Source: a virus (taxonomy: Duplodnaviria > Caudoviricetes). From it: a stretch of DNA of 64,000 nucleotides. The stretch lies in IMG/VR virus record IMGVR_UViG_3300012953_000012, positions 1 through 64,000 of that record. One strand, given 5' to 3'. Of this stretch, positions 2,032 to 52,732 are shown in pieces. The first letter of the stretch is position 1, and each line of letters opens with the position of its first letter. The notes under the pieces are model-generated. The model made no database searches. It had not been told where the DNA came from and was given only the letters and a program-made list of their open reading frames with translations. Both the position numbers and the translations under genes were made by a program.

Positions 2032-2046
2032 TCTATAGTGCTGCCC
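2032..2046 (+). promoter_or_regulatory. Putative late promoter motif CGGT-N7-CTAT
   Basis: cggt agggttt ctat, GGGTA 13 nt downstream, 59 nt before ATG 2106. One of 13 copies. Confidence 0.65.
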
Positions 2047-2105
2047 TATGGGTAGGACTTGTTGTGCAAGCCCTTACCGGGAATCCACCTCTTTCGGAGA
2101 ACACC

Positions 2106-2540
2106 ATGGCCAAACTGACCCGACAGGGAGCACGCAATCTGACTGCTACCCTCGACCGCATCGCTTCCGCAGTACAGGAAAACCCTGCACTGCTCGGCAT
2201 TGACATCAAAATCGCAAAGGACTTCGCGTACCGTTGTGATCTCATCTCGGACGCTGTTGAGCGTACCGCTGTCACCAACTTTCCGAAGCAGGCTGACATC
2301 AACAGTGCTGTTCCCAGTGCAGGCGGCGAGTACGACACCGCGAAGCCTGGCATCGAGAAGGAAATCGGCGCTGAGGTCAAGGGTCCCATCTATGAGGAAG
2401 ACCCCTCGGACGATCAGGACATCAAGGGCCACTTCACCCAGGCTGACTTTCATCAGTTGACCGAACTGGCCGAGAAGTTGAAGACCGCCGCCCGCAACGG
2501 CACGGTCGTCAGCGACCACGGATTCAACCTCACCAAGTAG
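2106..2540 (+). CDS. Hypothetical head-module protein (144 aa)
   Basis: GGAGA RBS then ATG 2106; contains KQAD and KTAA motifs; first gene of the protease/scaffold operon. Confidence 0.8.
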   Translation: MAKLTRQGARNLTATLDRIASAVQENPALLGIDIKIAKDFAYRCDLISDAVERTAVTNFPKQADINSAVPSAGGEYDTAKPGIEKEIGAEVKGPIYEEDPSDDQDIKGHFTQADFHQLTELAEKLKTAARNGTVVSDHGFNLTK

Positions 2541-2548
2541 GAGGCACC

Positions 2549-3124
2549 GTGCGTCGGTTTGCCGAAAACTACGTCAACTACCAAGAGCGGGCCACCGAGT
2601 TTTCTGTCGGAGACGTCGTGGTGCCGTTTGGCCTGTGGGATTCCCAGAGCGGTCGTGTCACGGCTGTGTGGCCTGCTATTGGTATGGTGGATGTAGAGTT
2701 CCCATCCGGCAACGCACGCTTCCCCGTCGAGGAACTTCAGCGCATGGGCGCTGATGGACAGGCCGAACCGCCCAGAACGGACTCCGCTCCGGGCGGGGGT
2801 GGGTCTGTTTCTGTGCCGGGTGGTCCGTACCCAGACAAGAAGAAGGCGGCCAATCGTGTGGCGCGGGCGTTCGTCAAGCAGTCCCTCTACTGGGCGCAGA
2901 AGGACCGCCAGTACCGCATGACCGGTCCCGAGAGCGCAGCGGGGAACCCCAACTGTCCAAAGTGTCCTGAGATCCCGCTGAAGCGGGCGATCTACAAACG
3001 CCGGGACGGCTCCAGCGAACGCCTTCAAGGCTGCCCTGGCTGCATGTTCCTCATCAAGGACGCGGACATCGTGAACTTCGGCCCTATCAGTGCCGAGGAG
3101 ATCGAGATCGAGGGGCAGGACTGA
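2549..3124 (+). CDS. Hypothetical protein with SH3-like N-terminus and C-terminal CxxC...CxxC zinc finger
   Basis: GGAGG RBS then GTG. FSVGDVV...GRVTAVWPAIGMVDVEF beta-barrel pattern; CPKC...CPGC; NRVARAFVKQS motif. Stop overlaps the next ATG. Confidence 0.8.
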   Translation: MRRFAENYVNYQERATEFSVGDVVVPFGLWDSQSGRVTAVWPAIGMVDVEFPSGNARFPVEELQRMGADGQAEPPRTDSAPGGGGSVSVPGGPYPDKKKAANRVARAFVKQSLYWAQKDRQYRMTGPESAAGNPNCPKCPEIPLKRAIYKRRDGSSERLQGCPGCMFLIKDADIVNFGPISAEEIEIEGQD

Positions 3125-4563
3125 TGGCGTTCCTCAAACGTGCCAATGCTATGGTCGTCCACCCCCGCATCTCTGGACGCGGTTGGGGCGGCATCCGCAA
3201 AACGGCTTCGGCAGGCTCCTCCCGGAACCTGACCGACCAGGCGCGGGAAATCCTCGGAGGATCACTGTCCTCCGACGACTACCTGGTCACGCACTGCACC
3301 ATCGTGGCGTCTGTAGACACCGACAAGGCCCCCAACGTGAAGTTGGGCAACGTCAAGGTCGGCACCCAGACGGTCAACAGACAGTGGGACGACTACCTGA
3401 TCAAGCCCTCGTCCTCCCAGTTTGTGAACAACAACGGCGACTCGTGGAGCCGCCCGGTGCTGAGGATGGCGTACCCGACCTTTATTGGGGCGCACAACTT
3501 CCGTGAGCACGTCCAGATCGAGGACCAGTCGAAGGGTCGGATCATCGACGCCTGTGCTCGTGACATCGGTGATTCCCTCTATGTGGACATCCTGGTTGCC
3601 ACGAACAAGAAGCACGCGGCGCTCGTCCAGGACATCCAGTCAGGCAAGATGGCGACCCTCTCCATGGGTTGCACAACTGACTTCACGACTTGCTCTAAGT
3701 GCGGTCACTTCGCTGTGGACGAGACCCAGTTGTGTGATCACATCAAGTACGCGAAACTCAACACCTTCATGGACGATTCCGGCCAGAAGCGTGTGATCGC
3801 AGAACTCTGTGGACACCAGTCCTACAACGAGAACCCGGACGCCCCTGGTGGGGTCAGGTTCATCGAGGCTTCCTGGGTCGCGGTTCCTGCGTTCCCCGGT
3901 GCCGTGATGCGGAACATCCTTGATCCCAGCGCGGCGTCCGATGACCAGGTTCGCAAAGTGCTCGCCTCCCCTCCCCCTCAGTGGTCAGACCACGCGGTCG
4001 CAAAGGCCGCGTCCATGTCGGCCCTTGCCTTCGACTTCGGTGGTGGCGGGGATGATGAGGACGACGCCCCTGCAAAGGACGAGAAGCCGTCGCCCCCGTT
4101 TCAGGGGATCGAAGATGCGGTGTACGAAGCCCTCAAGGTCCGGGTCAAGGAGCGCCTGGAGCGTGATCTCGCCCAGAAGGCTGTTGAGGATTCTGAGCCG
4201 GAACCTGATGGCACAATGGAGCCGAACGACTCCATCATCAAGGAAGGTCGAGCGCACTCGACTTCAGTCAAAGCACTTGTTCGTGTAGCCTCCTCCGAGG
4301 TCGCTCTTGTAGACGGTATTGCTTCCGTTGACGCCGCACATGGTGTCAAGGTTGCACGCCACCTCTACAGGGTCGCCCTGGCAGCGGGCGTCCCCACCGA
4401 ACACCCTTCTCTTGACCGTTACCTGTTTGCCTGTAAGAAGGCGGCGGGCCGGGATCTGAGTACTGCCGAAATCCGGGTTGTTGTCCGGGTCGGCACCCTG
4501 TTGGCCCAATGGGCTGACAATAACAACCCCAAACCCCACTATCCTATGAGGAGACTGCCATGA
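3124..4563 (+). CDS. Prohead (capsid maturation) serine protease, HK97/S78-like, with zinc-binding insert
   Basis: GAHNFREH (His), TLSMGC (catalytic Ser context) and FIEASWVAVPAF (matches the E-x-S-x-V-x-x-P-A signature of caudoviral prohead proteases). CSKC...CDH insert. Sits upstream of scaffold and MCP. Confidence 0.8.
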   Translation: MAFLKRANAMVVHPRISGRGWGGIRKTASAGSSRNLTDQAREILGGSLSSDDYLVTHCTIVASVDTDKAPNVKLGNVKVGTQTVNRQWDDYLIKPSSSQFVNNNGDSWSRPVLRMAYPTFIGAHNFREHVQIEDQSKGRIIDACARDIGDSLYVDILVATNKKHAALVQDIQSGKMATLSMGCTTDFTTCSKCGHFAVDETQLCDHIKYAKLNTFMDDSGQKRVIAELCGHQSYNENPDAPGGVRFIEASWVAVPAFPGAVMRNILDPSAASDDQVRKVLASPPPQWSDHAVAKAASMSALAFDFGGGGDDEDDAPAKDEKPSPPFQGIEDAVYEALKVRVKERLERDLAQKAVEDSEPEPDGTMEPNDSIIKEGRAHSTSVKALVRVASSEVALVDGIASVDAAHGVKVARHLYRVALAAGVPTEHPSLDRYLFACKKAAGRDLSTAEIRVVVRVGTLLAQWADNNNPKPHYPMRRLP

Positions 4564-6074: not shown

Positions 6075-6095
6075 GGAAGTACGGCCAACAGGCCA

Positions 6096-6131
6096 AAACG
6101 CCCTGCCGGGATCCCTCCCGGCAGGGCGTTT
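6096..6131 (+). terminator. Intrinsic terminator hairpin
   Basis: 15-bp perfect stem aaacgccctgccggg / cccggcagggcgttt just after the scaffold stop. Confidence 0.75.
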
Positions 6132-6186
6132 GCTCGTTCCGGTCCTGACTTTGCATCACAGGGGTCAGACTTTTCGCCCTGAGTTT

Positions 6187-6201
6187 CAATAGCCCTCCTA
6201 T
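6187..6201 (+). promoter_or_regulatory. Putative late promoter motif CAAT-N7-CTAT (decoration/MCP operon)
   Basis: caat agccctc ctat, GGGTA 12 nt downstream, immediately after a terminator. Confidence 0.6.
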
Positions 6202-6314
6202 ATCAACCCATAAGGGTAGGACGTTCGCGTTCTACTGCTTCGGAAGCACCCTGCTCTCGGAGCGTTGAAACAACCCCGCCCCTGTAAACAGGGAGCATAG
6301 GCCCGGAGATAATC

Positions 6315-6926
6315 ATGGCTTTGCTTGGACAGGCGAGTGGTGGATGGACTGAAAGTTCCTCGGCCCTGCGTCTTTTGCACGTTGGGATTCGGAACACGGT
6401 CGGAATCCTCACCACCGATGCTTTCACCCAGACCAACCCCCCCGACGCGGCGACGTTCACGACCAGCACCAGTGCTGGCATGGACACCGCAACCCTCGGA
6501 GTCCTCAGCGGCTCTGTGGCGTTCACCCGTGGCGATGCCGCTGGTGGTTCCAACGAGATCGGCGGCCCCGGTGCTGTTGCTCCCGGAACCGCTGGAGTCG
6601 TCGAACTGGGCGTCTTCATCAACACCGCAGTCGGAAACGCCTACGAGAACACCCCCGGCCCCGCAAGTGGCAAGGGTCCGTACATGTCCGGCCAGGGCAC
6701 CTACGCGAACAGCCTCTATGAGACCAGCAACGCTGCTGGAGCCGTCACCTACACGACTGGCGATTCTCTGGCTGCCTCGATCAACGGCTACCTGATCTCG
6801 TCCAGCGCGACCTCCGGGTCGGCCAACGCTGACTACTTCTGTGGTGCTACCGCAGTGCTCATGGGCATTCTCAAGATGCCTGCTGACGCTGTGCAGCCCG
6901 AAATCGTCTACGACCAGCGTATCTGA
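6315..6926 (+). CDS. Capsid decoration/cement protein (putative)
   Basis: 203 aa, G/A/T-rich beta protein directly upstream of the MCP; GGAGA RBS. Confidence 0.6.
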   Translation: MALLGQASGGWTESSSALRLLHVGIRNTVGILTTDAFTQTNPPDAATFTTSTSAGMDTATLGVLSGSVAFTRGDAAGGSNEIGGPGAVAPGTAGVVELGVFINTAVGNAYENTPGPASGKGPYMSGQGTYANSLYETSNAAGAVTYTTGDSLAASINGYLISSSATSGSANADYFCGATAVLMGILKMPADAVQPEIVYDQRI

Positions 6927-6960
6927 TCAACTTCCAACCTCAACTCTTAGGAGACATCCC

Positions 6961-7833: not shown

Positions 7834-7867
7834 TCTCTGACTTCTGACGGGGGGTCGATGATCCCTT

Positions 7868-7907: not shown

Positions 7908-7911
7908 GGGG

Positions 7912-7940: not shown

Positions 7941-7946
7941 GCATGG

Positions 7947-8889: not shown

Positions 8890-9247
8890 GGCGTTCGTAG
8901 ACCTGGTAGAAGTCCATGTAGTGCTCGGGGGTCGCCTCCCCGCAGAAGGGGCAGTGGATGGACGCAGGGATGTCGTCCTCGCCCAGGTACGCGGCCCATA
9001 TCGCATCACAGTTGGGGCATTGAGGCGCGATCCACGGTTGGACCAAACCCTCCTGGACCAAAACCTCTACTATAGCCTCGGCTTGGACAACCCTGATCCC
9101 GGCCTCTTTGGCCAGGCTGGCGGTCGTGAAGAAGTACTCCCCTGACAGGCGTTTCAACGCCTGAGGCCAGATTGGCTTCCCGACTGTGTCGTCCGGCGTT
9201 GGCATTTCATCCTCATCCTCGACTCCCATGAAGGATAGGAAAGCCAC
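8873..9247 (-). CDS. Winged-HTH plus zinc-ribbon protein (putative regulator)
   Basis: FTTASLAKEAGIRVVQAEAIVEVLVQEGLV HTH-like segment followed by CPNC...CPFC. Confidence 0.7.
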   Translation of the reverse strand: MAFLSFMGVEDEDEMPTPDDTVGKPIWPQALKRLSGEYFFTTASLAKEAGIRVVQAEAIVEVLVQEGLVQPWIAPQCPNCDAIWAAYLGEDDIPASIHCPFCGEATPEHYMDFYQVYERLKTLE

Positions 9248-9250
9248 CGT

Positions 9251-14005: not shown

Positions 14006-14020
14006 ATAGGGGGGCCACCG
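14006..14020 (-). promoter_or_regulatory. Putative late promoter motif CGGT-N7-CTAT (minus strand)
   Basis: Plus strand atag gggggcc accg; points into the 13979 operon. Confidence 0.65.
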
Positions 14021-14040: not shown

Positions 14041-14055
14041 CGGTGGTGTGTCTAT
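14041..14055 (+). promoter_or_regulatory. Putative late promoter motif CGGT-N7-CTAT
   Basis: cggt ggtgtgt ctat, back to back with the minus-strand copy; upstream of 14184. Confidence 0.65.
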
Positions 14056-16928: not shown

Positions 16929-16943
16929 CGGTCATCTCTCTAT
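16929..16943 (+). promoter_or_regulatory. Putative late promoter motif CGGT-N7-CTAT
   Basis: cggt catctct ctat directly after a terminator, followed by GGGTA. Confidence 0.65.
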
Positions 16944-18635: not shown

Positions 18636-19553
18636 ATGACTTACGCGAAAGGCCAGTTTCAGTCCTATCGGGCTATCACCAAGATCCATCTCGGGGCGAT
18701 CTCCGACAATCTCTCGGAGGGTGAGGAGATCGAATACGACGGGCATGTGCTGAAGCGCGGAAGCGATGAACACTCTCTCCACAGCCTCCGCGCCGCCATC
18801 AAGGTGGGCTGGCTCGTGCCGGTCGAGGACACCAGTAGCATCTACGTCCCCCGGCCTGCTGGGGTCAAGGTCCACAAGGCCGATGGGACGGACGACAGCG
18901 AGATTGACCTGGACACCGTGTTTGAAACCGACGTGAACATGGGCACCCTCGACGAGGTTCGCCCTGACGCCGCCCCGAAGACCCACAAGGCCACGGCTGC
19001 CGGTCAGCAGAACTCCAGCGAAGGCAAGGTGGTGTCCCGAATCAAGACCTCCGCGAAGTCGGACACGGTCCAGATCGGTAAGGACGACCGCCAGGTGGTT
19101 GCCTCCCTGGACAACAAAAGCGGGATCGAGGTGGAGCGCGTGGCTGTGGCCACGGGCGATGTCCAGGAAGCCATCGGCGGGGAAGACCTCACCGAACTTC
19201 TCCCAGACGCGGAGTCCGCAGGAATCCCGAAGCCCGGCCCTTCCGGTGAGGGCGCTGGTGACCAGTCCGAGAGCCGTGCCCGCAGCGCAGCAGGGTCCAC
19301 TGTTGGCGGTGCTGATGATGGTGTCGTCGTGGCCCGCATCGGGGAGATTGCCCCGGAGCCTGACGGTCTGACCTTCATCCAGCAGTTCATCCCCGGCTTT
19401 GAGTGGGACATGGGCATCCAGTGGGCGAAGCGTGTCAAGATCGCCTGCGAGAAGTACGGCGACATCCCGGCGGTGCTTGACTACATCAACTCCGTCGAGA
19501 CCGAGACAGTCAAGAAGCACCTCGCCAAACGCCTCGCTGAGTCGAAGCGGTAG
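18636..19553 (+). CDS. Hypothetical protein (305 aa)
   Basis: GGAGG RBS then ATG 18636; coding-like bias. Confidence 0.8.
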   Translation: MTYAKGQFQSYRAITKIHLGAISDNLSEGEEIEYDGHVLKRGSDEHSLHSLRAAIKVGWLVPVEDTSSIYVPRPAGVKVHKADGTDDSEIDLDTVFETDVNMGTLDEVRPDAAPKTHKATAAGQQNSSEGKVVSRIKTSAKSDTVQIGKDDRQVVASLDNKSGIEVERVAVATGDVQEAIGGEDLTELLPDAESAGIPKPGPSGEGAGDQSESRARSAAGSTVGGADDGVVVARIGEIAPEPDGLTFIQQFIPGFEWDMGIQWAKRVKIACEKYGDIPAVLDYINSVETETVKKHLAKRLAESKR

Positions 19554-19562
19554 ACAGCCTAT
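19548..19562 (+). promoter_or_regulatory. Putative late promoter motif CGGT-N7-CTAT overlapping the upstream stop
   Basis: cgg tag acagc ctat; upstream of 19592. Confidence 0.6.
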
Positions 19563-21001: not shown

Positions 21002-21016
21002 CGGTAGTGCTTCTAT
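21002..21016 (+). promoter_or_regulatory. Putative late promoter motif CGGT-N7-CTAT
   Basis: cggt agtgctt ctat, GGGTA 11 nt downstream; upstream of 21050. Confidence 0.65.
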
Positions 21017-24676: not shown

Positions 24677-24691
24677 ATAGTCAGAGCAACG
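24677..24691 (-). promoter_or_regulatory. Putative late promoter motif CGTT-N7-CTAT (minus strand)
   Basis: Reverse complement cgtt gctctga ctat, then GGTAAG 10 nt later; upstream of 24637. Confidence 0.5.
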
Positions 24692-25664: not shown

Positions 25665-25679
25665 CGGTGGCTCTCCTAT
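25665..25679 (+). promoter_or_regulatory. Putative late promoter motif CGGT-N7-CTAT
   Basis: cggt ggctctc ctat, GGGTA 10 nt downstream; heads the 25720-36372 operon. Confidence 0.65.
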
Positions 25680-36372: not shown

Positions 36373-36387
36373 CAATACCGCCTCTAT
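36373..36387 (+). promoter_or_regulatory. Putative late promoter motif CAAT-N7-CTAT
   Basis: caat accgcct ctat immediately after stop 36372; upstream of 36423. Confidence 0.5.
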
Positions 36388-36422: not shown

Positions 36423-37274
36423 ATGGCCTGGGTAGAACAGTATTGGTGGAAGTTCCGCCACCGGGTATCGACCCTATGGGGGCGCTGCATAGAGGTCGTG
36501 ATTACCTTTTTCAACTTCATCCGCACGGACAAGGTAGGGCTCGTCGCCCCTACGATTCTGTTTATGGCCATCAGCCATGGATTCTTCTGGTCCACAGTCG
36601 TATTCCTCAATGACTGGACGACCTCGTGGTACGACGAGCGGCACCCGTCTCTCACCACGTCGGTCAGCGTGTGCATCGAAAGTCTCCCCAACGGTGTCTG
36701 TGCCAGGCTCGTGGAGCACCTGACTCTGGTCCAGAGCCGGGCACACCACCACTACGAGATCAGCCGGACCTTCCAGTCCTACCAGTTCGGGTTCCTGAGC
36801 ACATCCTTTTGGGCGGGCACCCTGCTGGCTCTGGGCATCTTCACGGTGGTTCGCAAGGGTTTCGATGACCTCGGATCATGGGGCAAGGGAATGCTGATGG
36901 GTTTGCTATGTGCGGCGGCTTTCTTTGGCGGCTTCCCGGCGCTCGTGAGCATCGACGACAACATCAAGGACAACCTCGACGGCTACAACGCTTACGACGG
37001 CATCGCCGCCGAGATCAGGACGTACATGCGGACGGGTGAGAGCGTCACCGGCAACCATGTGGACGGGGCCTCGTTCCTCCACAAGATCGACATGATGATC
37101 TCGGACCTCGATGCCCCCCGGATCCAACTCGACGCGACCCAGATGGACCTCGGCAAGAGCAGATTTCTGGAGTTGAGCCAGGAGATGGAGAGTGGGGTCA
37201 CGGCCCCCGATGCTCCAACGCCTCGCGTTATCCCGCCTATACCTTCTGAAGGGGTGGACGAGAGCACCCCATGA
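36423..37274 (+). CDS. Integral membrane protein (SLATT-like topology)
   Basis: One N-terminal and two central TM helices flanked by helical segments; GGAGA RBS. Confidence 0.7.
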   Translation: MAWVEQYWWKFRHRVSTLWGRCIEVVITFFNFIRTDKVGLVAPTILFMAISHGFFWSTVVFLNDWTTSWYDERHPSLTTSVSVCIESLPNGVCARLVEHLTLVQSRAHHHYEISRTFQSYQFGFLSTSFWAGTLLALGIFTVVRKGFDDLGSWGKGMLMGLLCAAAFFGGFPALVSIDDNIKDNLDGYNAYDGIAAEIRTYMRTGESVTGNHVDGASFLHKIDMMISDLDAPRIQLDATQMDLGKSRFLELSQEMESGVTAPDAPTPRVIPPIPSEGVDESTP

Positions 37275-39988: not shown

Positions 39989-40665
39989 CTGAGGAAGAGG
40001 CCAAAGCCAGACTGCTCCCCCCTGTGCAGAAGGGTGCTTTGGTGGTGGTCGTCCGTGGCCGCAAGGTGCCACGCGGCACTATGGGCGTGGTGAGGTGGGA
40101 AGGTGACGGTGACTACGGCCCCCGTGTGGGCCTCGCTGTCGAAGGCGAGGACAAACTCGTCTACACCGCCTACAAGAACGTCGATGCTGTGTACCCTGGC
40201 CTGATGCCTGGCCAGGATCCCGAGGGCGGTTGGGTCGAACTCTACGAGCGTGTGCAGCGGGAGCAACGGCTTCCGATGAAAGGGCACCGAATCGAGCACC
40301 GAGGCTCAGGCATGAAAGGCAAGGTCTTCTGGGCGCAGGGGAGCCGTATCGGCTTCAAGTCCGACAAGGGGGTCACCAACTGGTCCGACGCCCACGAGGT
40401 CTGGATGTTGTCGGGACCCATGGAGTGCCGTTTGGATTACGTCACCGAGGTTCCCGCCGTGCCTGCATTACGGGTCCTCCTTGAAGTAGACGCCCGGTCG
40501 CTTCCGGCCCCTTTCAATGAGATCCAGTACCTGGACCCCCTTCCCCAGGGCGGCTACCGAGGTTTGAATGGTCGCCAAGAGTACGTCGCCACGTTGCCTG
40601 AGGAGGTGGCCCAGCAACACCTTCCGGTTGTGGGCCACCTCCAGGATTCCGGGCGTCCTCGGTAG
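39985..40665 (+). CDS. Hypothetical protein with SH3/KOW-like modules
   Basis: ATGA-coupled; KGALVVVVRGRKVPRGTMGVVRW...RVGL. Confidence 0.75.
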   Translation: MTEEEAKARLLPPVQKGALVVVVRGRKVPRGTMGVVRWEGDGDYGPRVGLAVEGEDKLVYTAYKNVDAVYPGLMPGQDPEGGWVELYERVQREQRLPMKGHRIEHRGSGMKGKVFWAQGSRIGFKSDKGVTNWSDAHEVWMLSGPMECRLDYVTEVPAVPALRVLLEVDARSLPAPFNEIQYLDPLPQGGYRGLNGRQEYVATLPEEVAQQHLPVVGHLQDSGRPR

Positions 40666-40674
40666 CCCGCCTAT
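40660..40674 (+). promoter_or_regulatory. Putative late promoter motif CGGT-N7-CTAT overlapping the upstream stop
   Basis: cgg tag cccgc ctat; upstream of 40700. Confidence 0.6.
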
Positions 40675-40699: not shown

Positions 40700-40843
40700 A
40701 TGGGCTGTGGCTGTCGCAAGAAGAACGGGGCGAAAAACCCAACGGCAATCAAGAAATCTGCTCCCCAGATTCGGGTTGCCCGTGCGATCCCTCGTGAGCC
40801 TGTGACGAAGCGACTCCCCCGAGGGACGCGGGTGCGCCGATGA
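40700..40843 (+). CDS. Small basic protein MGCGCRKK... (47 aa)
   Basis: GGAGG RBS then ATG 40700; K/R-rich. Confidence 0.7.
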   Translation: MGCGCRKKNGAKNPTAIKKSAPQIRVARAIPREPVTKRLPRGTRVRR

Positions 40844-40852
40844 CGTGCCTAT
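40838..40852 (+). promoter_or_regulatory. Putative late promoter motif CGAT-N7-CTAT overlapping the upstream stop
   Basis: cga tga cgtgc ctat, then GGGTA; upstream of 40888. Confidence 0.55.
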
Positions 40853-47400: not shown

Positions 47401-50397
47401 GTAGCCGGACCTACGGCGGCTATCTACGTCACAGCCTTCACCGACGACGACCACATCAAGCGCATCTACATGCTCACCATCGAGGGGAACACCATCTCTA
47501 ACTCGTGGGGTCAGGGGATCTACTTCACCTGTGCAGCATCGGACACGACCACGACCGGCTTTATCGGTATGGACGCCATCACCGTAACGGACAACGAGAT
47601 CGACAGGCTTCTCTGGAACCAGGCTCAGGGCGCAGTCGGAATCGGCTTTGTCCTCGACGGAGGCACGAATGAGAGGATGAATACTGGATACCCAGCGTTC
47701 ACCACGCCGGGCCTTCAGAACTTCTCGGTGCTCAGGAACCGTGTCAGCCAGGTGGGGCGGGGCTTTGACCTGGGCGGTGACGACATCTTGTCCTGGGTCA
47801 ACTTCGCCATCGAGGACAACAACTGGTCTGGGAACGGATCTGCTCACCTCACCCCGACCACCGACTACCTCAACCGGGTGTCCCTCTCCCTCACCGACAG
47901 CACCAAGGAGATGACCCTTGAAAACTGGTCCATCTCCGGGAACAACTGCGCCATCGATCTCCAGAACCGGCAGTTGGATAACTGGCGGTTCCTGACGGAG
48001 AACGCCAATGTCTCGGTCCTCCGGGTCCAGGGCAACCAGATCAACGGCTCTGGGCTCGATGCCACACCCAACGACTATGGGCGTTCATTCTACTACCTCG
48101 GAAACAACCAGAAGAATGCGTTGGTGTCCACCGACCACAAGGAGATCCACATCTCCGGGAACACCTTTGGAGGGGGCCTCTACTGGGAGGCCAGAAACTC
48201 CAGCCTCTACAGGATGGACATCCACGGGAACCAGATCTCGGTCCCTGTCGCAGATGCTGACACCCCCACCCTGTCCCCCCTGACCCTGTGGAACAACGGC
48301 TTCGACGTTGACGGCCTCAAACTCCAGACAGTCCACGTCCGGGAGAATGCCCTGACGGGAGGGACACACAGTCTTCTCTTCATGGTTGATGACACCCAGG
48401 AGATCGAGGAGATCGCGATCTGCGGGAACGCCTTTCAGGACGCCCGTCTTCACGCGGTGTGGTTCGGCGTAGACCAGACATCCGGGGTGTCGTACCACTC
48501 AGACGTCGTCAGGAACCTCCTGATCGACGGCAACATCATCGGCAACCACGGCGCAAACTCAAGCAACCAAGCCACCGGCATCCGCTTCGCAGCGGGGCAG
48601 GCGGCCACACAGACGCTCGGGATCACGAACAACCAGGTGTACAACCAGGACCTCCAGGCGATCACCTGCTTCTTCGGCGGCTCGGTTCCGGCCTTTGGGG
48701 GAGCCTACGACAGGAACATCACCATCGAGGACAACAAGATAGACCTGTGTGGGTACACCGACGCCGCTCTCCCCTTGATCTCCCTGGAGGTGGACCCTGC
48801 GGCCAGCCTCGGGGTCAACGACGACATCAGTTCGGTCTCTGTCAGCGGCAACCAGATCAGCAACAGCGGGTGGTCCGATGGCAGTGTTGGCATCTACGCT
48901 GACTTCGCTGACTACGGAATCTGCTACGACATGCGAGTGGACGACAACACCCTGACCCAACCCTCGGGCAGCATCATCAACCCGAGTCGTTTCGGTTCGG
49001 GTGTCGAGTTGGACCTCCCCTCCGCACAGCGGCTCTCCGTGTCCCGCAACCAACTGCGGTGCAGCGGGTTCGCCGGGGGTGTGACTAAGGGCTTTGGGGT
49101 CTTCCTCCAGTTTTACCGGGGCGTGGATCCGGGATCCTCTGAACCTGGCATCTCTGGGATCGCCCTGGACGACAACATCATCAGCCTTGACGACGATTCT
49201 GATGGGGGCATCAACTGGGCGGTACTGGCGACCGAGGACATGCAGATTCGGGACTTCAGTGTCTGCCGCAACCAGATCCGCGCCAGGACCGCCAACATAG
49301 TCAGCACCGGGATTCGGTTCGTCGGTGAGGACGGAGCAGGGGACTACTCAGGCTACTTGCAGAACGTCCACATCAACGACAACCTCATCTCAAACTTGCG
49401 GACGGCGGTGGAGTTGCGCCAGTCCGAGTTGGACATGCTCCATGACGGACTTCTTCTGCGGAACTGCGGGATGGACGGCAACAACGTCTATGAGTGCTCC
49501 ATCCAGGGACTCGTCTGGAAGACAGGGGCGGTGAACGCCAACTCGGGCAACATTCATGGTTTCTCGGCAAGCCGGAATCAGGTGACGACGACTCGCCGTG
49601 GAGACCAGAGCAGTGCGGCCAACCCCCTGCTCGGCGTTTACTTCGGTCGAGGGTTTTTGTCGGGCGTCGGCTCGGTCAACATGCACTCGATCTCTGTCGA
49701 TGACAACCAGATTTACCTGGCCAACCCCGACGACCAGGGCACTGAATGGACGGGTATTCATCTGCAACTGTCTGCGGTCAACAATGACGGCGGGGGGCCT
49801 GTCCCCAGCGCCATGACCACCATCAGTTGTGACAGGAACCACATCCGAAACACAGGCTACAACGCCATTGACTTTGAGATGATGGGCTATACCGAGCAGA
49901 ACGCTCAGGGTGACCTGACCAATGTCACCAAGGTCAAGAACGCCTCCTGCTCGGGCAACCTGATCATTGGCGGGACGGAGATGGTAACCACTATTCACCG
50001 GGGCCTTCTCCGAATCGATCTCCAGAACGCCGTCCTTCAACAGTTCACCCTCCAGGGGAACAACGTCGAAACCGTCTTTGCAGACGGTCTGGGCGAGGCT
50101 TTGGTGGTCGCCACCTTGTACCTCCCCCCCAACCCTCCCGTGAACAATAACGACGACAACCAGTACTGGTCAGTGCAAAGCAACGTCATCACCCATGGCT
50201 CAGACGGCAACGAGCATGTCATCGCAGTCATGGACGGAGGGTCAGGTGTCACGGGCTGGCACTATGGACCTCCAGTGCAGGGAATCGTCACGGGGAACCT
50301 CAACACCTCCGACACGAATGCTTCCGACGACTTCAATGGCGCGTACTGGACCTTCGGGGGGACCAGCATCCAGTCCAACAACCTCGTGATCCCGTAG
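44482..50397 (+). CDS. Giant tailspike-like right-handed beta-helix protein (1971 aa)
   Basis: N-terminal HIHDPSRAHMASSI attachment motif; dozens of parallel beta-helix repeats (I-x-G-N-x-I, V-x-D-N). Confidence 0.8.
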   Translation: MPRNVDPGTIRVGKGLAPEGTVEDNSLRYPERDADPLRVHIHDPSRAHMASSIGIVDELDCYVSDEVEGALQELCGNSAAGRLNGLIAGGTFSELGCLPNGTAGGVHATLTLCSPTEILMNGTVLDATGLTVSVPAANTVYFIYLDTQVSSPTYRELVATTGTPPQVEVGDPDTTTGPGSIENVMLAKVTMDAGGNVVSWQDARFFVRNLDRKVTYSSRQGENVDAWSEGCFANLQAFFFWAEYYGDGALPSSNEEEKGMVLIRGTHTILSTLNVPTDHLQFVGDGEAIIELTGNAAFDAVLVDAKKDITFRNITFLCNVASTGSKGIRAAGDFTDLTVEDCRFLSGAQNFSVALHLDAGGAVNERITVRDCAIEAVDCGVNVDGFGSTSSWGTLIENCSVDSQAVAAGSVGIQLGDNQTNGYGTVRGCFVSSFETGIMVKDTGVTLVEGNTIRDTISGIIYPSDSAIGHTVVNNHITLGDNLTLHGIFFGIGHQSIVISGNYIRSLIDGGHPSEPYGISVQGRAASEKVNARIENNHVIGFYDATATIGHGIWVVGTDGVCEGVTITGNTLSRNNIAVESWMNGTITGNTVEAATLGMPPGPTVGGAIDLTNARSFTVSGNTVNARDVIRHGVYARVGKDLTVTGNTVTQPFVTGVLLDSGPNFGAISGMENFTVSGNTVDALPDPANPSLPTADGIVISSTTDDGSPEIGVVDGNSVRRCRHGILLTGFAINVPIRDVTVSNNIVSECAKDQDTWDIWDFQDAGTYGIGCLYAKNIILSGNNIGSVGQVTLDTGAPLVPANNVFVQALFTLNCSGVTAQGNTIRNSLPYGTGRANDIALLVGRLAGDVECINTKVEGNSIIINDSVDPGSHQGILAWADGTSGVATAGFIDLSISDNTIHTVNGASGSGVGTGIHIVAQDEGAIEGARIEGNQIGNYLSSGIYVQTGDGSPQGDSSMYRVGVRHNTLRSMGVAGPTAAIYVTAFTDDDHIKRIYMLTIEGNTISNSWGQGIYFTCAASDTTTTGFIGMDAITVTDNEIDRLLWNQAQGAVGIGFVLDGGTNERMNTGYPAFTTPGLQNFSVLRNRVSQVGRGFDLGGDDILSWVNFAIEDNNWSGNGSAHLTPTTDYLNRVSLSLTDSTKEMTLENWSISGNNCAIDLQNRQLDNWRFLTENANVSVLRVQGNQINGSGLDATPNDYGRSFYYLGNNQKNALVSTDHKEIHISGNTFGGGLYWEARNSSLYRMDIHGNQISVPVADADTPTLSPLTLWNNGFDVDGLKLQTVHVRENALTGGTHSLLFMVDDTQEIEEIAICGNAFQDARLHAVWFGVDQTSGVSYHSDVVRNLLIDGNIIGNHGANSSNQATGIRFAAGQAATQTLGITNNQVYNQDLQAITCFFGGSVPAFGGAYDRNITIEDNKIDLCGYTDAALPLISLEVDPAASLGVNDDISSVSVSGNQISNSGWSDGSVGIYADFADYGICYDMRVDDNTLTQPSGSIINPSRFGSGVELDLPSAQRLSVSRNQLRCSGFAGGVTKGFGVFLQFYRGVDPGSSEPGISGIALDDNIISLDDDSDGGINWAVLATEDMQIRDFSVCRNQIRARTANIVSTGIRFVGEDGAGDYSGYLQNVHINDNLISNLRTAVELRQSELDMLHDGLLLRNCGMDGNNVYECSIQGLVWKTGAVNANSGNIHGFSASRNQVTTTRRGDQSSAANPLLGVYFGRGFLSGVGSVNMHSISVDDNQIYLANPDDQGTEWTGIHLQLSAVNNDGGGPVPSAMTTISCDRNHIRNTGYNAIDFEMMGYTEQNAQGDLTNVTKVKNASCSGNLIIGGTEMVTTIHRGLLRIDLQNAVLQQFTLQGNNVETVFADGLGEALVVATLYLPPNPPVNNNDDNQYWSVQSNVITHGSDGNEHVIAVMDGGSGVTGWHYGPPVQGIVTGNLNTSDTNASDDFNGAYWTFGGTSIQSNNLVIP

Positions 50398-50405
50398 GAG
50401 GACCC

Positions 50406-51371
50406 ATGCTGAACACACCCATCATCACATACGTTGGCAGATACGAGGATGCCGCCTCCATGGCGGCCCCAGCATCTGTGCTGTCCGCCCAGGGGTGGTT
50501 GTCCCACCGCGCGGGACCGGAGCACGCAGAGGTGGAGATCACTCCCGCCGACGCCCAGAACCGCCGGAATGCGGTGCTTGCTGCCATCGTGGCGAAGATC
50601 CCCGCTGGGATCACGCGGGTGCTGGACATTGGTTGCGGCAACGGTGACCTCGCCGAGGCCCTTCACGCGACCCGTCCTGAGGTGAACTACCGGGGCATAG
50701 ACATCTCCATGGAGGCCATCGCCGCAGCCAACACCAACCTGGAGTCCTCCCCCGGAAACCTTCCTGCAAACGTCGAGTTGCAGACGGCAAACCTCACGGA
50801 GTACCTGCTTGCAGGGGTGGATGACTGGGACTTCATTGTCTCCTCTCGCTGTGTCTTTCGGGAGACTCGCAGATCTGGCGACCGCGCCCTTCTCCGACTC
50901 ATCGACAGCAAGGCTCCCAAGGGGTGGTTCATCTACGGAACCCACTGGCGTATGCTCCGTCCCGATCTTCAGTACGTCATGCAGGAAGCGTTGACCAACA
51001 GCACCGACCCCACCGAGCACTACTTCAAAGGTGCTCAGTCCTTTCTGAATGTCGCTGCGGCGTTCGTCGGGTACGAGAAAGAGCACCCGGCCTACATCAT
51101 CAGGGGGGCCTCCGTGGCTCCTGCGCCTGATCCCGGCAAGTACCAGAAGTTCGATGTGATGAAGAACGGCAAGTTTGAGGAGGCCCGCGCACAAGGGACC
51201 CTCAAGTACGACTCAGGCATGACGGAGTACAAGAGTGCTACGTTCGACGCCCAGGGGCAGTTCACGGGAGAGGTGGTTGTGAGCAAAGCGTCCGCCCCCG
51301 CGAAGGCCAACCTTGCGGACGTGGAGTCACAGAAGACCAACCTTCAGAACCTCAAACAGATCGCGGGGTAG
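50406..51371 (+). CDS. Class I SAM-dependent methyltransferase
   Basis: Motif I RVLDIGCGNG, motif II YRGIDIS, DFIVSS; AGGAGG RBS; in operon with the tailspike. Confidence 0.85.
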   Translation: MLNTPIITYVGRYEDAASMAAPASVLSAQGWLSHRAGPEHAEVEITPADAQNRRNAVLAAIVAKIPAGITRVLDIGCGNGDLAEALHATRPEVNYRGIDISMEAIAAANTNLESSPGNLPANVELQTANLTEYLLAGVDDWDFIVSSRCVFRETRRSGDRALLRLIDSKAPKGWFIYGTHWRMLRPDLQYVMQEALTNSTDPTEHYFKGAQSFLNVAAAFVGYEKEHPAYIIRGASVAPAPDPGKYQKFDVMKNGKFEEARAQGTLKYDSGMTEYKSATFDAQGQFTGEVVVSKASAPAKANLADVESQKTNLQNLKQIAG

Positions 51372-51380
51372 GACACCAAC

Positions 51381-52556
51381 ATGAGAATCTTCACCGACAT
51401 CGCCAGCCATGACACGACAGGGGTCGCTCCGGGCGGGCGTATCGTTCGTACCGACTCCACCCCCGTGCAAGGGGAGGAGACCCCGATCAACGGTCAGTGG
51501 GTCTTCCCCGTCCCCGAAGGCGCAGCACTGACGGTGGATTCGACCTCCTTCTGGTTCCCCCAGGAGGACCTCAACTCGATCCCCTCACGAACGGCATCCG
51601 AGTTGCTGATCCGCTACCCGATGTACGACCACATCATCTACAACTTCTACCTCGACAACGGGGACACGGACGCCTTCGATCTGACCAACCCCACGCCGAT
51701 GCCAACAGTTGCGACCACTACCCCGCCGATGCCTACCATCCTGGGGGCCAGCACGGTGCCGCGCTGCCAGTTGGGAGGCCCTACAGGCGCTCCCTCAGTC
51801 GGCATGGTCCCCAACTCCCTGGGAGTCCTGCCTCGGACGGAGGGCCGCCCCAACAACCTTTTCGGCTCGCTCGTCACGGCGATGATCGATCTGTGGTACT
51901 TCAACCCCTGCTACATCGAGGTCAATGATCCGGTCACCCTCAACCCCGGTGACATTGTATCCCTCGACGCCCTCCCTCTTGAGGCGATAGCAGGTGTTCG
52001 CGTCTCTGGCGACGACAACTTCTCTCTGAGCAGCGGAACCGCTGCGGGCATCGCGGCGGACATCGTGGCTGCGATCAACGACCCGCTCAACTCCTTCTCG
52101 ACACTGGTGCTGGCGACGATTGACCCCACGGTCCCGAGCCGCATCCAACTGCGTCCCGTGCCTCCGACCAACACCCAGATCACTGTCGCCGCTGCTGGTG
52201 GGGTCACCGGGTTCACTCTCGTCGAGTCCCATCCTGGCACCGACGAAGTGATGATGTGGTGGAAGATCAACCGCATGACGGTGACCGAGGACCAGGGCAA
52301 CACTCAGGCTACGACCCCGATTGGCAACACCCCAGCCATCAAGAGCCTTGTCGAGATCAATGAGGAAGACCCCGACCTGCTGGTTTACGCCAGCGTGGAT
52401 GACGGAAACTCCTGGTATCGCATCCCCTACCTTGAGCCGATTGACTTGATCAACGCGGGCACCGAGTTGCGGGTAGCATTCATCAACCTCGGCACTGACA
52501 AGATCTATGTCGAGGGCTTCTGCGTCCTGTTCCCTGACCTCTTGCCTCCGCTGTAG
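51381..52556 (+). CDS. Putative virion structural protein (391 aa)
   Basis: Shares the IAADIxxAINDxxNS module with the 40888 protein. Confidence 0.75.
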   Translation: MRIFTDIASHDTTGVAPGGRIVRTDSTPVQGEETPINGQWVFPVPEGAALTVDSTSFWFPQEDLNSIPSRTASELLIRYPMYDHIIYNFYLDNGDTDAFDLTNPTPMPTVATTTPPMPTILGASTVPRCQLGGPTGAPSVGMVPNSLGVLPRTEGRPNNLFGSLVTAMIDLWYFNPCYIEVNDPVTLNPGDIVSLDALPLEAIAGVRVSGDDNFSLSSGTAAGIAADIVAAINDPLNSFSTLVLATIDPTVPSRIQLRPVPPTNTQITVAAAGGVTGFTLVESHPGTDEVMMWWKINRMTVTEDQGNTQATTPIGNTPAIKSLVEINEEDPDLLVYASVDDGNSWYRIPYLEPIDLINAGTELRVAFINLGTDKIYVEGFCVLFPDLLPPL

Positions 52557-52558
52557 CC

Positions 52559-52723
52559 ATGCACCACATCTCCATCCACGACCTGAAAGGCGATGAGCGC
52601 CGCCGCTGGGCAGAGGCCCGCAAGGCCGCCTATCGCAAGGTATTGCGGGATCGGGGGGCGTCTGACCAGCAGCGCAGGGAAGCCCGAGCCAAGTTGAACG
52701 CCATCGACCGCCCTTCCCGGTAG
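52559..52723 (+). CDS. Small basic helical protein (54 aa), absent from the ORF track
   Basis: ATG 2 nt after the previous stop; MHHISIHDLKGDERRRWAEARKAAYRK... Confidence 0.55.
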   Translation: MHHISIHDLKGDERRRWAEARKAAYRKVLRDRGASDQQRREARAKLNAIDRPSR

Positions 52724-52732
52724 TCCGGCTAT
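52718..52732 (+). promoter_or_regulatory. Putative late promoter motif CGGT-N7-CTAT overlapping the upstream stop
   Basis: cgg tag tccgg ctat, GGGTA 11 nt downstream; upstream of 52791. Confidence 0.65.

What the first reader, a model, noticed from the sequence alone, without database searches (positions are those of the whole stretch)
2032..52732. Novel bipartite promoter-like motif C[GA][GAT]T-N7-CTAT in front of 13 transcription units
Seen in sequence, with exactly 7 nt spacing every time: 2032, 6187, 14041, 16929, 19548, 21002, 25665, 36373, 40660, 40838, 52718 (+) and 14006-14020, 24677-24691 (-). Eight of the 13 are CGGT. Most are followed 5-13 nt later by GGGTA or a close variant. All lie just upstream of a gene start in the correct orientation; two directly follow terminators. 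The motif does not match sigma70 (-35/-10), sigma54 or T4 late TATAAATA. Inference: a late promoter read by a phage-encoded sigma factor, activator or RNA polymerase encoded outside this window.
Basis: partly seen in the sequence, partly recalled or inferred. Interest (0 to 1): 0.78.

Follow-up and report, generated by a model that had tools for sequence, protein, structure and literature searches.

The report
Late-gene promoter of a giant phage
A short two-part DNA signal, CGGTAG-five bases-CTAT, sits in front of about 55 gene groups of an uncultured ~256-kb marine phage and its relatives; it is almost certainly the phage's own late promoter, probably read by the host RNA polymerase carrying phage-made sigma-type proteins.

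Summary
C[GA][GAT]T-N7-CTAT occurs 19 times in the window against 2.3 expected. In the reconstructed ~256-kb genome there are 59 copies: 49 lie in intergenic DNA within 250 nt upstream of a same-strand gene start, 10 lie in sense coding DNA, and none is antisense. The spacing is strict (N7 43 copies; N5, N6, N8, N9 1-7 each). The core is CGGT(A/G)G-N5-CTAT, with a weaker third block GG(G)TA about 13 nt downstream. It heads the head-protease operon, an endolysin, sheath-, fibre- and tail-like genes, and giant proteins. It is kept at orthologous sites while the flanks diverge, and it is enriched in relatives of 297-618 kb.

No phage RNA polymerase was found. The genome encodes a sigma-70-family protein (sigma2 plus sigma4, outside the window) behind a different, middle-type promoter. 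A near-identical relative encodes a 190-aa tandem sigma4-like protein whose two recognition helices are invariant, as are the two half-sites.

Best reading: this is a phage-specific late promoter read by host core polymerase with phage sigma-type factors. The start site and the exact reader remain unproven. Other first readers of this scan noted the same motif in overlapping windows of this genome. It is a new variant of a known kind.

The parts
2022..2036 (+). Class III promoter core CGGTAGGGTTTCTAT, followed by GGGTAGG. It heads the head-module operon 2106-6074, which includes the maturation protease.
   Evidence: The core is kept in a relative with 60% protein identity while the upstream flank is not.
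6187..6201 (+). Variant core CAATAGCCCTCCTAT plus GGGTAGG. It heads gene 6315-6926 through a conserved 113-nt leader.
   Evidence: Conserved in the 73%-identity relative L011.
9235..9249 (-). Core CGGTGGCTTTCCTAT, right after the stop codon of gene 9251-9970(-) and before the next minus-strand gene.
   Evidence: Also present in L010.
14006..14020 (-). Core CGGTGGCCCCCCTAT, the minus-strand half of a divergent pair. It heads the minus operon 13979 to 10534.
   Evidence: The same divergent pair exists in the 60%-identity relative L012.
14041..14055 (+). Core CGGTGGTGTGTCTAT, the plus-strand half of the divergent pair. It heads the 890-aa gene 14184-16856.
16929..16943 (+). Core CGGTCATCTCTCTAT plus GGGTAGGGTA, 10 nt after an intrinsic terminator (16886-16919). 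It heads 16975-19553.
   Evidence: The first gene has a weak tail-assembly-chaperone match.
19548..19562 (+). Core CGGTAGACAGCCTAT overlapping the stop codon of the upstream gene. It heads 19592-20743.
21002..21016 (+). Core CGGTAGTGCTTCTAT plus GGGGTAAG. It heads 21050-23939.
24677..24691 (-). Variant core CGTTGCTCTGACTAT plus GGTAAG. It heads minus-strand gene 24311-24661.
25665..25679 (+). Core CGGTGGCTCTCCTAT plus GGGGTAGGGT. It heads 25720-36372, which includes the 1454- and 1406-aa proteins.
36373..36387 (+). Variant core CAATACCGCCTCTAT, immediately after the stop codon of the 1406-aa gene. It is a weaker candidate.
37226..37240 (+). Variant core CGTTATCCCGCCTAT inside the 3' end of gene 36498-37274, 31 nt before the next start.
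40660..40674 (+). Core CGGTAGCCCGCCTAT. The CCTCC just after it can pair with the GGAGG of a small ORF that starts 25 nt downstream.
40838..40852 (+). Variant core CGATGACGTGCCTAT, 35 nt before the 1196-aa gene. It heads 40888-52556, which includes a beta-helix fibre-like protein of 1971 aa.
52718..52732 (+). Core CGGTAGTCCGGCTAT plus GGGGTAAGGGT. It heads the 1785-aa gene 52791-58148.
59395..59409 (+). Core CGGTGGTGTGTCTAT, the same 15-mer as at 14041, inside the 3' end of gene 58724-59512 and about 100 nt before the next start.

Best explanation
The motif is the late-class promoter of this megaphage and its clade.

**Anatomy.**
- An invariant CGGT, usually CGGTAG or CGGTGG.
- An invariant CTAT exactly 7 nt after CGGT. 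The two blocks lie about 10 bp apart centre to centre, which is one helical turn.
- A weaker GG(G)TA, whose A lies 16 nt after the last T of CTAT.
- No conserved block at the canonical -35 distance.

**Proposed mechanism (inferred).** Host core RNA polymerase is redirected to these sites by phage-encoded sigma-70-family proteins made from a separate middle promoter class (GGGGG-N17-19-CGGGTA). Two candidates stand out.
- A 283-aa sigma with an invariant region 2 and a C-terminal region-4 helix-turn-helix (G000:87182-88033, minus strand).
- A 190-aa protein made of two sigma-region-4-like helix-turn-helix domains. It is encoded next to a clamp-loader gene and a NusG-like gene in the near-identical relative G001. 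Both its recognition helices are invariant across the clade, as are the two half-sites.

Transcription would start 0-25 nt downstream of CTAT and give short leaders. The start codon usually follows CTAT by 24-40 nt.

**Shown versus inferred.** Shown: the motif's statistics, orientation, spacing, conservation and gene class; the presence and fold of the sigma-type proteins; and the absence of a detectable phage polymerase. Inferred: which protein reads which block, and where RNA starts.
For: **Enrichment.** The window holds 19 matches against 2.3 expected. The strict form occurs 24 times in the 205-kb record, and the back-to-front control occurs 0 times.

**Placement in the ~256-kb composite.** The composite is G000 plus the 50.7-kb stretch that G001 bridges.
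- Of 59 matches, 49 are intergenic, sense-oriented and within 250 nt of a start. Ten are coding-sense, and none is antisense or in another intergenic position. The coding fraction is 0.911.
- Changing the spacing to N5, N6, N8 or N9 leaves 1-7 matches, mostly coding.
- A position weight matrix at 13 bits or more gives 50 intergenic-sense and 7 coding-sense sites, and no others.
- No conserved block lies further upstream.

**Third block.** A sits at +16 in 61 of 100 non-redundant clade sites, with C in 2. The block persists when the Shine-Dalgarno sequence is far away.

**Conservation.**
- The motif is kept at orthologous sites in relatives of 60-73% protein identity while the upstream flanks diverge.
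- 20 of 23 loci carrying the tandem-HTH gene have the motif within about 50 nt after its stop, down to 49% identity.
- Whole relatives show 45 matches against 4 control, 25 against 11, 21 against 6, 20 against 8 and 13 against 8.

**Late gene content.** The genes behind the motif include a head protease, an endolysin, a sheath-like domain and a beta-helix fibre.

**Separate promoter classes.** Two other classes occupy separate genome blocks: a sigma70-like class I, and a class II that precedes replication genes and the 283-aa sigma gene.

**Sigma proteins.**
- The 283-aa family profile hits PDB sigma-H 3mzy at E 0.0012 across regions 2-4. Its Foldseek list is dominated by sigma factors, mostly of ECF type. 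Region 2 is invariant in 15 relatives.
- The 190-aa protein scores 56.8 bits against TIGR02937 in the region-4 part, with two Sigma70_r4 stretches. Its fold matches sigma4 domains at TM 0.6-0.85. Both helices are invariant in 16 relatives.

**Precedent.** Phage 7-11 gp47 and phiEco32 gp36 are phage sigma factors that direct host core polymerase to phage-specific late promoters, GTAAtg-N16-aCTA and tAATGTAtA (PMC8948821).
Against: - No transcription start was mapped. The only RNA-library run that holds this DNA gives short contigs, with no information on RNA ends.
- A sigma with sigma2 and sigma4 on core polymerase normally reads blocks 16-18 bp apart, not 5-7. The geometry therefore needs an unusual contact or a second protein.
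- The tandem-HTH gene lies in the relative G001, not in the record that holds the window. It sits in the stretch that this record lacks.
- The third block is lost at one orthologous site, where GGGTAGG has become GAGCGAG in L013.
- Remote polymerase homologues could escape Pfam, and many large proteins remain unannotated.
- The link between motif and protein rests on parallel conservation only.
Confidence: 0.62

Rival explanations
1. The motif is a compact promoter for a phage-encoded RNA polymerase, either single-subunit T7/N4-like or a divergent multisubunit enzyme. It would be read as one roughly 17-bp unit, with the start just after CTAT.
For: - The size and layout resemble T7-group promoters: a specificity block, 5 nt, then CTAT(A), with G often following. 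Several copies read CTATAG.
- The genome has many large unannotated proteins, including one of 3810 aa.
Against: - No hit to PF00940 was found, although that search's controls were silent.
- No hit to PF00623 was found, and here all 14 control genomes rang.
- The only NADFDGD word lies in a low-complexity, coiled-coil membrane-type protein.
- The largest ORFs scanned in Pfam or PHROGs show no polymerase domain.
- The large unknown proteins are themselves behind this motif, as late virion genes would be.
- The base after CTAT is A in only 20% of sites.
Confidence: 0.1
2. The motif is read by a host alternative sigma factor, or by the host holoenzyme alone, with no phage-encoded specificity factor.
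For: The host is unknown, so its sigma repertoire cannot be checked. CTA-type -10 blocks exist for ECF-like sigmas.
Against: - The motif is kept in phages of 48-64% GC and 140-620 kb from different samples. This fits a reader carried by the phage.
- The phage has a separate sigma70-like class I promoter for host-type recognition.
- It also carries conserved sigma-family genes.
Confidence: 0.1
3. CGGT-N7-CTAT is an operator for a phage DNA-binding regulator that lies beside the true core promoter, for example the downstream GGTA block. It would then be an activator or repressor site rather than the element the polymerase itself reads.
For: - Two invariant 4-bp half-sites one turn apart suit a two-HTH protein, and such a protein exists with invariant helices.
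- The downstream GG(G)TA block equals the -10-like block of class II promoters.
Against: - The GGTA block is weak (A in 55-61% of sites) and is lost at an orthologous site.
- With a start about 7-10 nt after GGTA, many genes would be leaderless, yet they keep normally spaced Shine-Dalgarno sequences.
- This rival overlaps the best explanation and differs only in which block counts as the core.
Confidence: 0.13
4. The motif acts on RNA, as a processing site, a leader element or a translation signal, and does not act as a DNA promoter.
For: - It is strand-specific and lies at a rather fixed distance from start codons.
- In a few sites the bases just after CTAT pair with the ribosome-binding site.
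Against: - Copies sit in divergent intergenic regions and directly after a terminator, where no upstream same-strand RNA is expected.
- Conservation starts sharply at CGGT.
- The pairing tendency is not general (p = 0.065).
Confidence: 0.03

Closest known systems
Late promoters of phiEco32-like phages read by phage sigma factors: phi32_gp36 (tAATGTAtA) and SaPh711_gp47 (GTAAtg-N16-aCTA). Source: PMC8948821.
   Same: A phage-encoded ECF-like sigma redirects host core polymerase to a phage-specific consensus in front of late genes. The -10 block of phage 7-11 (aCTA) resembles CTAT. The sigma gene itself belongs to an earlier expression class.
   Different: Here the two blocks are 5-7 nt apart, not 16, and a third weak block follows. 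There are about 55-60 copies in a 256-kb genome. A second protein made only of sigma4-like domains is conserved beside the sigma. Nothing has been tested biochemically.
Phage T4 late transcription: gp55 sigma, gp33 co-activator and sliding clamp, acting on the TATAAATA promoter.
   Same: There is a dedicated late class with no canonical -35 block. The specificity functions may be split over two small proteins. The tandem sigma4 gene lies beside a clamp-loader gene. A few promoters sit inside hairpins that hide the next ribosome site, as at T4 genes e and soc.
   Different: The sequence is unrelated to TATAAATA. The sigma here keeps a region-4 helix-turn-helix. No clamp gene was found (PF00712), and clamp dependence is pure speculation.
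Sigma54 -24/-12 promoters (TGGCAC-N5-TTGC)
   Same: The layout is the same: a hexamer with GG at positions 2-3, 5 nt, then a tetramer. A recurrent word (GTA) sits about 13 nt after the tetramer, where a sigma54 promoter would start.
   Different: The defining GC of the -12 block is absent, since CTAT stands there. The candidate readers belong to the sigma70 family. No sigma54 or enhancer-binding ATPase was looked for or seen.
T7-group single-subunit polymerase promoters, such as SP6 ATTTAGGTGACACTATAG
   Same: Both are compact signals of about 17 bp with an upstream specificity block and a CTAT(A) block next to the presumed start.
   Different: No such polymerase gene was detected. The base after CTAT is not conserved as A, and the five bases between the blocks are free.
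T4 MotA/AsiA sigma appropriation at middle promoters (MotA box at -30)
   Same: If the tandem sigma4 protein replaces the normal -35 contact, the logic is the same: a phage protein supplies a new upstream contact while a sigma2 domain opens a weak -10.
   Different: There is no homology to MotA or AsiA. The site is bipartite, and this is only one of several geometries that the data allow.

Membership tests
Canonical sigma70-type promoter (-35/-10) | Two blocks separated by 16-18 bp | tested here: not met
   The blocks are 5 nt apart (hexamer to tetramer), or 7 nt from CGGT to CTAT. No conserved column lies 10-25 nt upstream of CGGT in 24 or in 100 aligned sites. The sigma70-pattern scan found 0 sites in 13800-17100.
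Canonical sigma70-type promoter (-35/-10) | A -10 hexamer of TATAAT type, with A at position 2 and T at position 6 | tested here: not met
   Only TAT of CTAT fits. The next three positions are G/C-rich and not conserved.
Sigma54 -24/-12 promoter | A GG doublet and a GC doublet 10 nt apart (TGGCAC-N5-TTGC) | tested here: not met
   GG and the N5 spacing are present, but the second block is CTAT in every copy and has no GC.
Sigma54 -24/-12 promoter | Presence of sigma54 and an enhancer-binding AAA+ activator | not tested
   No search for RpoN or bEBP families was run. The host is unknown.
T4-type late promoter | TATAAATA at -10 | tested here: not met
   The consensus is CGGTAG-N5-CTAT followed by G/C-rich bases.
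T4-type late promoter | A gp55-like sigma without region 4, plus gp33 and a sliding clamp | tested here: inconclusive
   The 283-aa sigma has a region-4-like helix-turn-helix. A separate protein made only of sigma4-like domains exists. A clamp loader is present, but no beta-clamp family hit was found. gp55 and gp33 families were not searched by name.
T7-like single-subunit polymerase promoter | A phage gene for a T7-like RNA polymerase | tested here: not met
   PF00940 gave no hit, though the search controls were silent. Pfam or PHROG scans of about 50 proteins, including most of those over 500 aa, show none.
Jumbo-phage non-virion multisubunit polymerase promoter (phiKZ, AR9) | Phage genes for split beta/beta' subunits with the DFDGD catalytic loop | tested here: not met
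   PF00623 gave no hit, with all 14 controls ringing. The six-frame scan for D[FY..]DGD finds one NADFDGD, in a coiled-coil low-complexity protein. Very remote homologues cannot be excluded.
Promoter of a phage-encoded sigma70-family factor (phiEco32 / 7-11 / SPO1 type) | A phage-encoded sigma-family protein with a region-2 core | tested here: met
   The family profile hits PDB sigma-H at E 0.0012 over regions 2-4. Foldseek's best matches are nearly all sigma factors. TIGR02937 matches at E 9e-4, below its cut-off. Region 2 is invariant in 15 relatives.
Promoter of a phage-encoded sigma70-family factor (phiEco32 / 7-11 / SPO1 type) | A phage-specific consensus confined to the upstream side of one temporal gene class | tested here: met
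   Of 59 matches, 49 are intergenic-sense and 0 antisense. The genes behind them are of late type, and the motif is spatially separate from classes I and II.
Promoter of a phage-encoded sigma70-family factor (phiEco32 / 7-11 / SPO1 type) | Transcripts start 6-9 bp downstream of the element and depend on the phage sigma | not testable with these tools
   Only assembled RNA-library contigs were available, so RNA ends could not be seen.

The most novel reading that the evidence does not exclude
The late promoter is not read in the usual -35/-10 way. A phage protein made only of two sigma-region-4-type helix-turn-helix domains docks on the polymerase in place of normal region 4. It grips the two invariant half-sites CGGT and CTAT on successive turns of the helix. 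A separate phage sigma2 domain then opens a weak GGTA block downstream. This would be a split, sigma54-like-in-geometry initiation system built from sigma70 parts. It would be conserved through an uncultured clade of 250-620-kb phages, and it might be tied to replication through the neighbouring clamp-loader and NusG-like genes.
Probability: 0.2. Interest if true: 0.8.

Novelty: new variant of a known kind. Interest (0 to 1): 0.58.

Why it matters
Giant uncultured phages are known almost only as gene lists, and how they time their gene expression is unknown. This motif, together with the two other promoter classes in the same genome, gives a readable three-stage transcription map of a ~256-kb marine megaphage. 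It also marks about 55 late transcription units, most of whose genes have no annotation.

The motif extends to relatives of up to 618 kb, so it can be used to annotate late (virion, lysis) genes across that clade.

The geometry is unusual: two short invariant blocks one helical turn apart, with no canonical -35. A conserved protein made only of sigma4-like domains is a candidate reader. Together they point to a way of redirecting bacterial polymerase that has not been described, and it can be tested directly in vitro with synthetic DNA and recombinant proteins, without culturing the phage.

Tried and rejected
- **RNA evidence.** Two run searches found one metatranscriptome run with a small share of the words. 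Laid on window 1-20000, it gave only short contigs over pieces of the head genes and no RNA ends. This says nothing about start sites.
- **Close cultured relatives.** Megablast of 20 kb against GenBank phages found none. tblastn with both sigma-type proteins hit only one unannotated uncultured 485-kb record.
- **NADFDGD word.** A word in the bridged stretch looked like a polymerase active site. The protein is acidic, low-complexity and coiled-coil with a membrane segment, and has no polymerase domain, so this was rejected.
- **Single-sequence PDB searches.** Searches with the sigma candidates gave nothing. Only the family profile did.
- **Complex prediction.** The sigma (residues 95-283) was folded with the tandem-HTH protein (residues 17-175). 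The result was no verdict, with a score of 0.22 against a mark of 0.32. This is no evidence either way.
- **Locating the start from RNA folding.** The ten bases after CTAT pair with the translation start region strongly at five sites. Across 38 sites the effect is not significant (p = 0.065).
- **Ribosome-site spacing as a test for leaderless mRNA.** Spacing is the same with and without the motif, so this is uninformative.
- **Literature.** Searches on jumbo- or huge-phage promoters and the phage G genome paper turned up no description of this motif.
- **Beta-clamp family search.** No hit.

Full report

The pattern C[GA][GAT]T-N7-CTAT has 19 matches in the 64-kb window. Dinucleotide-preserving shuffles give 2.34 (maximum 6). 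The first is at 2022-2036, so the '2032' in the finding is a slip. CGGT occurs in 9 of the 13, not 8.

Six matches were not listed.
- Three look functional: 9235-9249(-), 37226-37240(+) and 59395-59409(+).
- Three lie deep inside long genes and have weak first halves (18654, 28574, 29357). They match the number expected by chance.

One terminator directly upstream was confirmed: stem 16886-16919 with a T run, followed by the motif at 16929.

**2. The genome**

The window is the first 64 kb of a 205,564-bp IMG/VR virus record. A 141-kb record about 92-97% identical (G001) runs from the end of that record, across 50.7 kb that it lacks, into its start. The genome is therefore about 256 kb and closes on itself.

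I called genes with a codon-usage model trained on the long ORFs. This gave 260 genes and a coding fraction of 0.911.

**3. Distribution**

Counts in the composite:

| Pattern | Total | Intergenic, sense, within 250 nt of a start | Coding sense | Antisense or other intergenic |
|---|---|---|---|---|
| Loose pattern | 59 | 49 | 10 | 0 |
| CGGT-N7-CTAT | 43 | 39 | 4 | 0 |

- Several of the coding-sense copies lie in the last 100 nt of the upstream gene.
- Changing the spacer to 5, 6, 8 or 9 nt leaves 5, 1, 7 and 6 matches, almost all in coding DNA.
- The pattern read backwards has 1 match and 0 for the strict form.
- A weight matrix at 13 bits or more finds 50 intergenic-sense and 7 coding-sense sites and nothing else. 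At 10 bits it adds about a dozen one-mismatch sites in front of genes.

Copies also stand back to back in divergent intergenic regions (14006/14041, and 177589-178152), where RNA must begin.

**4. Anatomy**

Aligned sites show nothing conserved in the 25 nt upstream of CGGT (100 non-redundant clade sites).

| Block | Composition |
|---|---|
| First block | C-G-G-T invariant, then A (69%) and G (68%) |
| Spacer | five nearly free, G/C-rich positions |
| Second block | C-T-A-T invariant |
| Third block (weaker) | G at +12 to +14 after the last T of CTAT, T/A at +15, A at +16 (61%, C 2%) |

- GTA begins 13-14 nt after CTAT in 17 of 49 genome sites.
- The third block persists in the 47 sites whose ribosome-binding sequence lies at least 23 nt away. 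It is therefore not just the Shine-Dalgarno sequence.
- The start codon follows CTAT by 22-43 nt in most sites, with a pile-up at 24-28 nt.

**5. What the motif drives**

Genes behind the motif include:
- the head-module operon with the maturation protease;
- a tail-chaperone-like gene;
- an endolysin;
- a 1721-aa protein with a sheath C-terminal domain, and a 1971-aa beta-helix protein;
- many giant unannotated proteins.

Two other promoter-like classes fill the rest of the genome.
- Class I is CGTTAAAA-N9-GCTTCCGTAAGTA, which reads as a sigma70-like GTTAAA-N17-TAAGTA. It has 12-14 near-identical copies.
- Class II is GGGGG-N17-19-CGG(G)TA, with about 11 copies. It stands in front of helicase, polymerase-region and other replication genes and of the sigma gene.

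The three classes occupy separate blocks of the map. Other first readers of this scan had already noted classes I and II and the same class III motif in overlapping windows of this genome. I re-derived them here.

**6. Conservation**

- At the orthologous site upstream of the head module in a relative with 60% protein identity, the upstream flank is unalignable. Conservation starts exactly at CGGTAGGGTT(T/C)CTAT.
- Downstream of the major head gene, a 73%-identity relative keeps CAATAGCC(C/G)TCCTAT, GGGTAGG and the whole 113-nt leader.
- In 20 of 23 viral contigs that carry the tandem-HTH gene (49-100% identity, GC 48-64%), a CGGT/CGAT/CGTT-N7-CTAT copy lies within about 50 nt after that gene's stop. 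In the distant ones positions 5-6 are TT instead of AG.
- Whole relatives show enrichment over the reversed control:

| Relative size | Matches | Control |
|---|---|---|
| 297 kb | 45 | 4 |
| 618 kb | 25 | 11 |
| 402 kb | 21 | 6 |
| 497 kb | 20 | 8 |
| 372 kb | 13 | 8 |

The strand bias in these relatives follows gene direction. The motif is therefore a clade-wide signal whose invariant parts are CGGT, CTAT and their spacing.

**7. Who reads it?**

*No phage polymerase was found.*
- PF00940 gave no hit, but its controls were silent, so this is weak evidence.
- PF00623 gave no hit while all 14 controls rang.
- A six-frame scan for the catalytic DFDGD loop gave one NADFDGD. It lies in an acidic, coiled-coil membrane-type protein and is a chance word.
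- Pfam or PHROG scans of about 50 proteins, including most large ones, showed no polymerase.

*Sigma-family proteins are present.*

(a) **A 283-aa protein at G000:87182-88033 (minus strand).**
- It has a sub-threshold Sigma70_r2 hit.
- Its 15-member family has an invariant block of the sigma region 2 type and a variable C-terminal helix-turn-helix.
- The family profile hits PDB sigma-H 3mzy at E 0.0012 across regions 2-4.
- The AlphaFold model (pLDDT 75) retrieves almost only sigma factors, mostly of ECF type.
- Its own upstream region carries a class II copy, so it is probably a middle gene.

(b) **A 190-aa protein in G001, encoded after a clamp-loader gene and a NusG-like gene.**
- It consists of two sigma-region-4-like helix-turn-helix domains: Sigma70_r4 at E 4e-13 with two stretches, and TIGR02937 at 56.8 bits on the region-4 part.
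- The model has pLDDT 77, and sigma4 domains match at TM 0.6-0.85.
- Both recognition helices are invariant in 16 relatives down to 49% identity. This parallels the two invariant half-sites, which lie one helical turn apart.
- Its operon is headed by class II copies.

(c) **A 429-aa protein at 188076-189365 (minus strand).** An earlier follow-up report in this scan called it a remote sigma. It sits behind a good sigma70-type promoter, TTGACC-N17-TACAAC. It could be the early factor that reads class II.

This suggests a cascade: host sigma70 reads class I and this early gene, class II then drives replication genes and the two late factors, and class III drives the late genes. The cascade is an inference from gene and promoter positions only.

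**8. Where does RNA start?**

Sequence alone does not settle this. Four geometries fit parts of the data.

- **Geometry B.** CTAT is the -10 block, with the start about 10 nt later in the G run. The precedent is the aCTA -10 of phage 7-11 gp47 (PMC8948821). The first block would then lie at about -24 to -19, an unusual place.
- **Geometry C'.** CGGT and CTAT lie at about -37 and -26 as a site for the tandem sigma4 protein. GGTA is the -10, as in class II. Many genes would then be nearly leaderless, yet they keep normal Shine-Dalgarno spacing, and GGTA is lost at one orthologous site.
- **Geometry D.** This is a sigma54-like layout with the start at GTA.
- **Geometry A.** CGGTAG is the -10 and CTAT spans the start.

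In five sites the bases just after CTAT form strong hairpins with the ribosome site, but across 38 sites the effect is not significant (p = 0.065). My rough weights are B 0.35, C' 0.30, D 0.15 and A 0.15.

**9. Comparison with known systems**

The closest functional relatives are the late promoters of phiEco32-like phages, which are read by phage ECF-like sigma factors on host core polymerase. The T4 late system is also close: a dedicated sigma plus a co-activator, no -35 block, and promoters inside ribosome-site hairpins.

The motif fails the defining features of several known classes.
- Canonical sigma70: the spacing and the hexamer do not fit.
- Sigma54: there is no GC at the -12 position.
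- T4 late: there is no TATAAATA.
- Phage-polymerase promoters: no polymerase gene was found.

Searches of the paper library, including the 2025 phage G genome paper and reviews of jumbo-phage transcription, found no description of this motif.

**10. Verdict**

The motif is a real, strongly supported, clade-wide promoter class for late genes. The class itself (a phage-specific late promoter with a phage-coded specificity factor) is a known kind.

The variant is new in three ways:
- two short invariant blocks lie one helical turn apart;
- a third weak block is shared with the middle class;
- a conserved protein made only of sigma4-like domains is a candidate reader.

The reader protein and the start site remain to be shown.

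Noticed in passing
window 39446-39537 (divergent pair at 39480(-) and 39503(+)); also G000 76726, 78513/78602, 94185/94220, 95133, 160838, 163777, 167016/167645: There are 12-14 nearly identical class I elements, CGTTAAAA-N9-GCTTCCGTAAGTA. They read as a sigma70-like GTTAAA-N17-TAAGTA with an upstream T run and long structured leaders. They are probably early promoters for the host holoenzyme.
   Followed up: partly
window 60165-60194 and 61806-61833; also G000 69044, 88183(-), 108036, 111561(-), 157131(-), 172578, 203412: Class II elements, GGGGG-N17-19-CGG(G)TA, stand in front of the SNF2-type helicase and other replication genes and of the 283-aa sigma gene. Two copies lie only 9 nt before an ATG, which suggests leaderless mRNAs.
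   Followed up: partly
G001:C1:36745-87478 (L024-L026): A near-identical 141-kb record bridges the end and the start of the window's record across 50.7 kb. The genome is therefore about 256 kb and circular or circularly permuted, not the ~445 kb implied by the 46% completeness estimate. The bridged stretch holds 18 more motif copies, five of them with the identical 15-mer CGGTAGCGTGCCTAT.
   Followed up: yes
L024:11796-14335 (G001 47796-50335): A conserved gene trio runs clamp loader (DNA_pol3_delta2), then a NusG-like protein, then the tandem sigma-region-4 protein. A class III promoter follows it at once in 20 of 23 related contigs. The C-terminal NLNIL..E..R..W.EPVI..V tail of the tandem protein is also conserved and unexplained.
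   Followed up: partly
window 6202-6314: The 113-nt leader between the 6187 motif and gene 6315 is about 90% conserved in a relative whose proteins are only 73% identical. It may be a structured 5' untranslated RNA.
   Followed up: no
G000:189366-189640: The 429-aa sigma-like gene (188076-189365, minus strand) has a good sigma70-type promoter, TTGACC-N17-TACAAC. It stands back to back with two tandem class III copies (189556, 189590) that drive the 756-aa late protein.
   Followed up: partly
L024:1988-2779 (G001 37988-38779): A 263-aa acidic, proline-rich protein with a membrane segment and a coiled coil carries an exact NADFDGD, the catalytic motif of polymerase beta'. This is apparently chance. 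It is followed by a 1219-aa protein with H-type lectin and OmpA-like domains.
   Followed up: yes
G000:80834-80875, 108632-108673, 111576-111620; window 40660-40702: At a subset of class III sites the bases just after CTAT contain CCTCC, which pairs with the GGAGG of the next gene. This may be a T4-like hairpin that blocks translation of read-through RNA.
   Followed up: partly
G000:175750-175983: A 77-aa single sigma-region-4-like helix-turn-helix protein (Sigma70_r4, 28.5 bits) is encoded immediately upstream of a class III copy at 175988.
   Followed up: no
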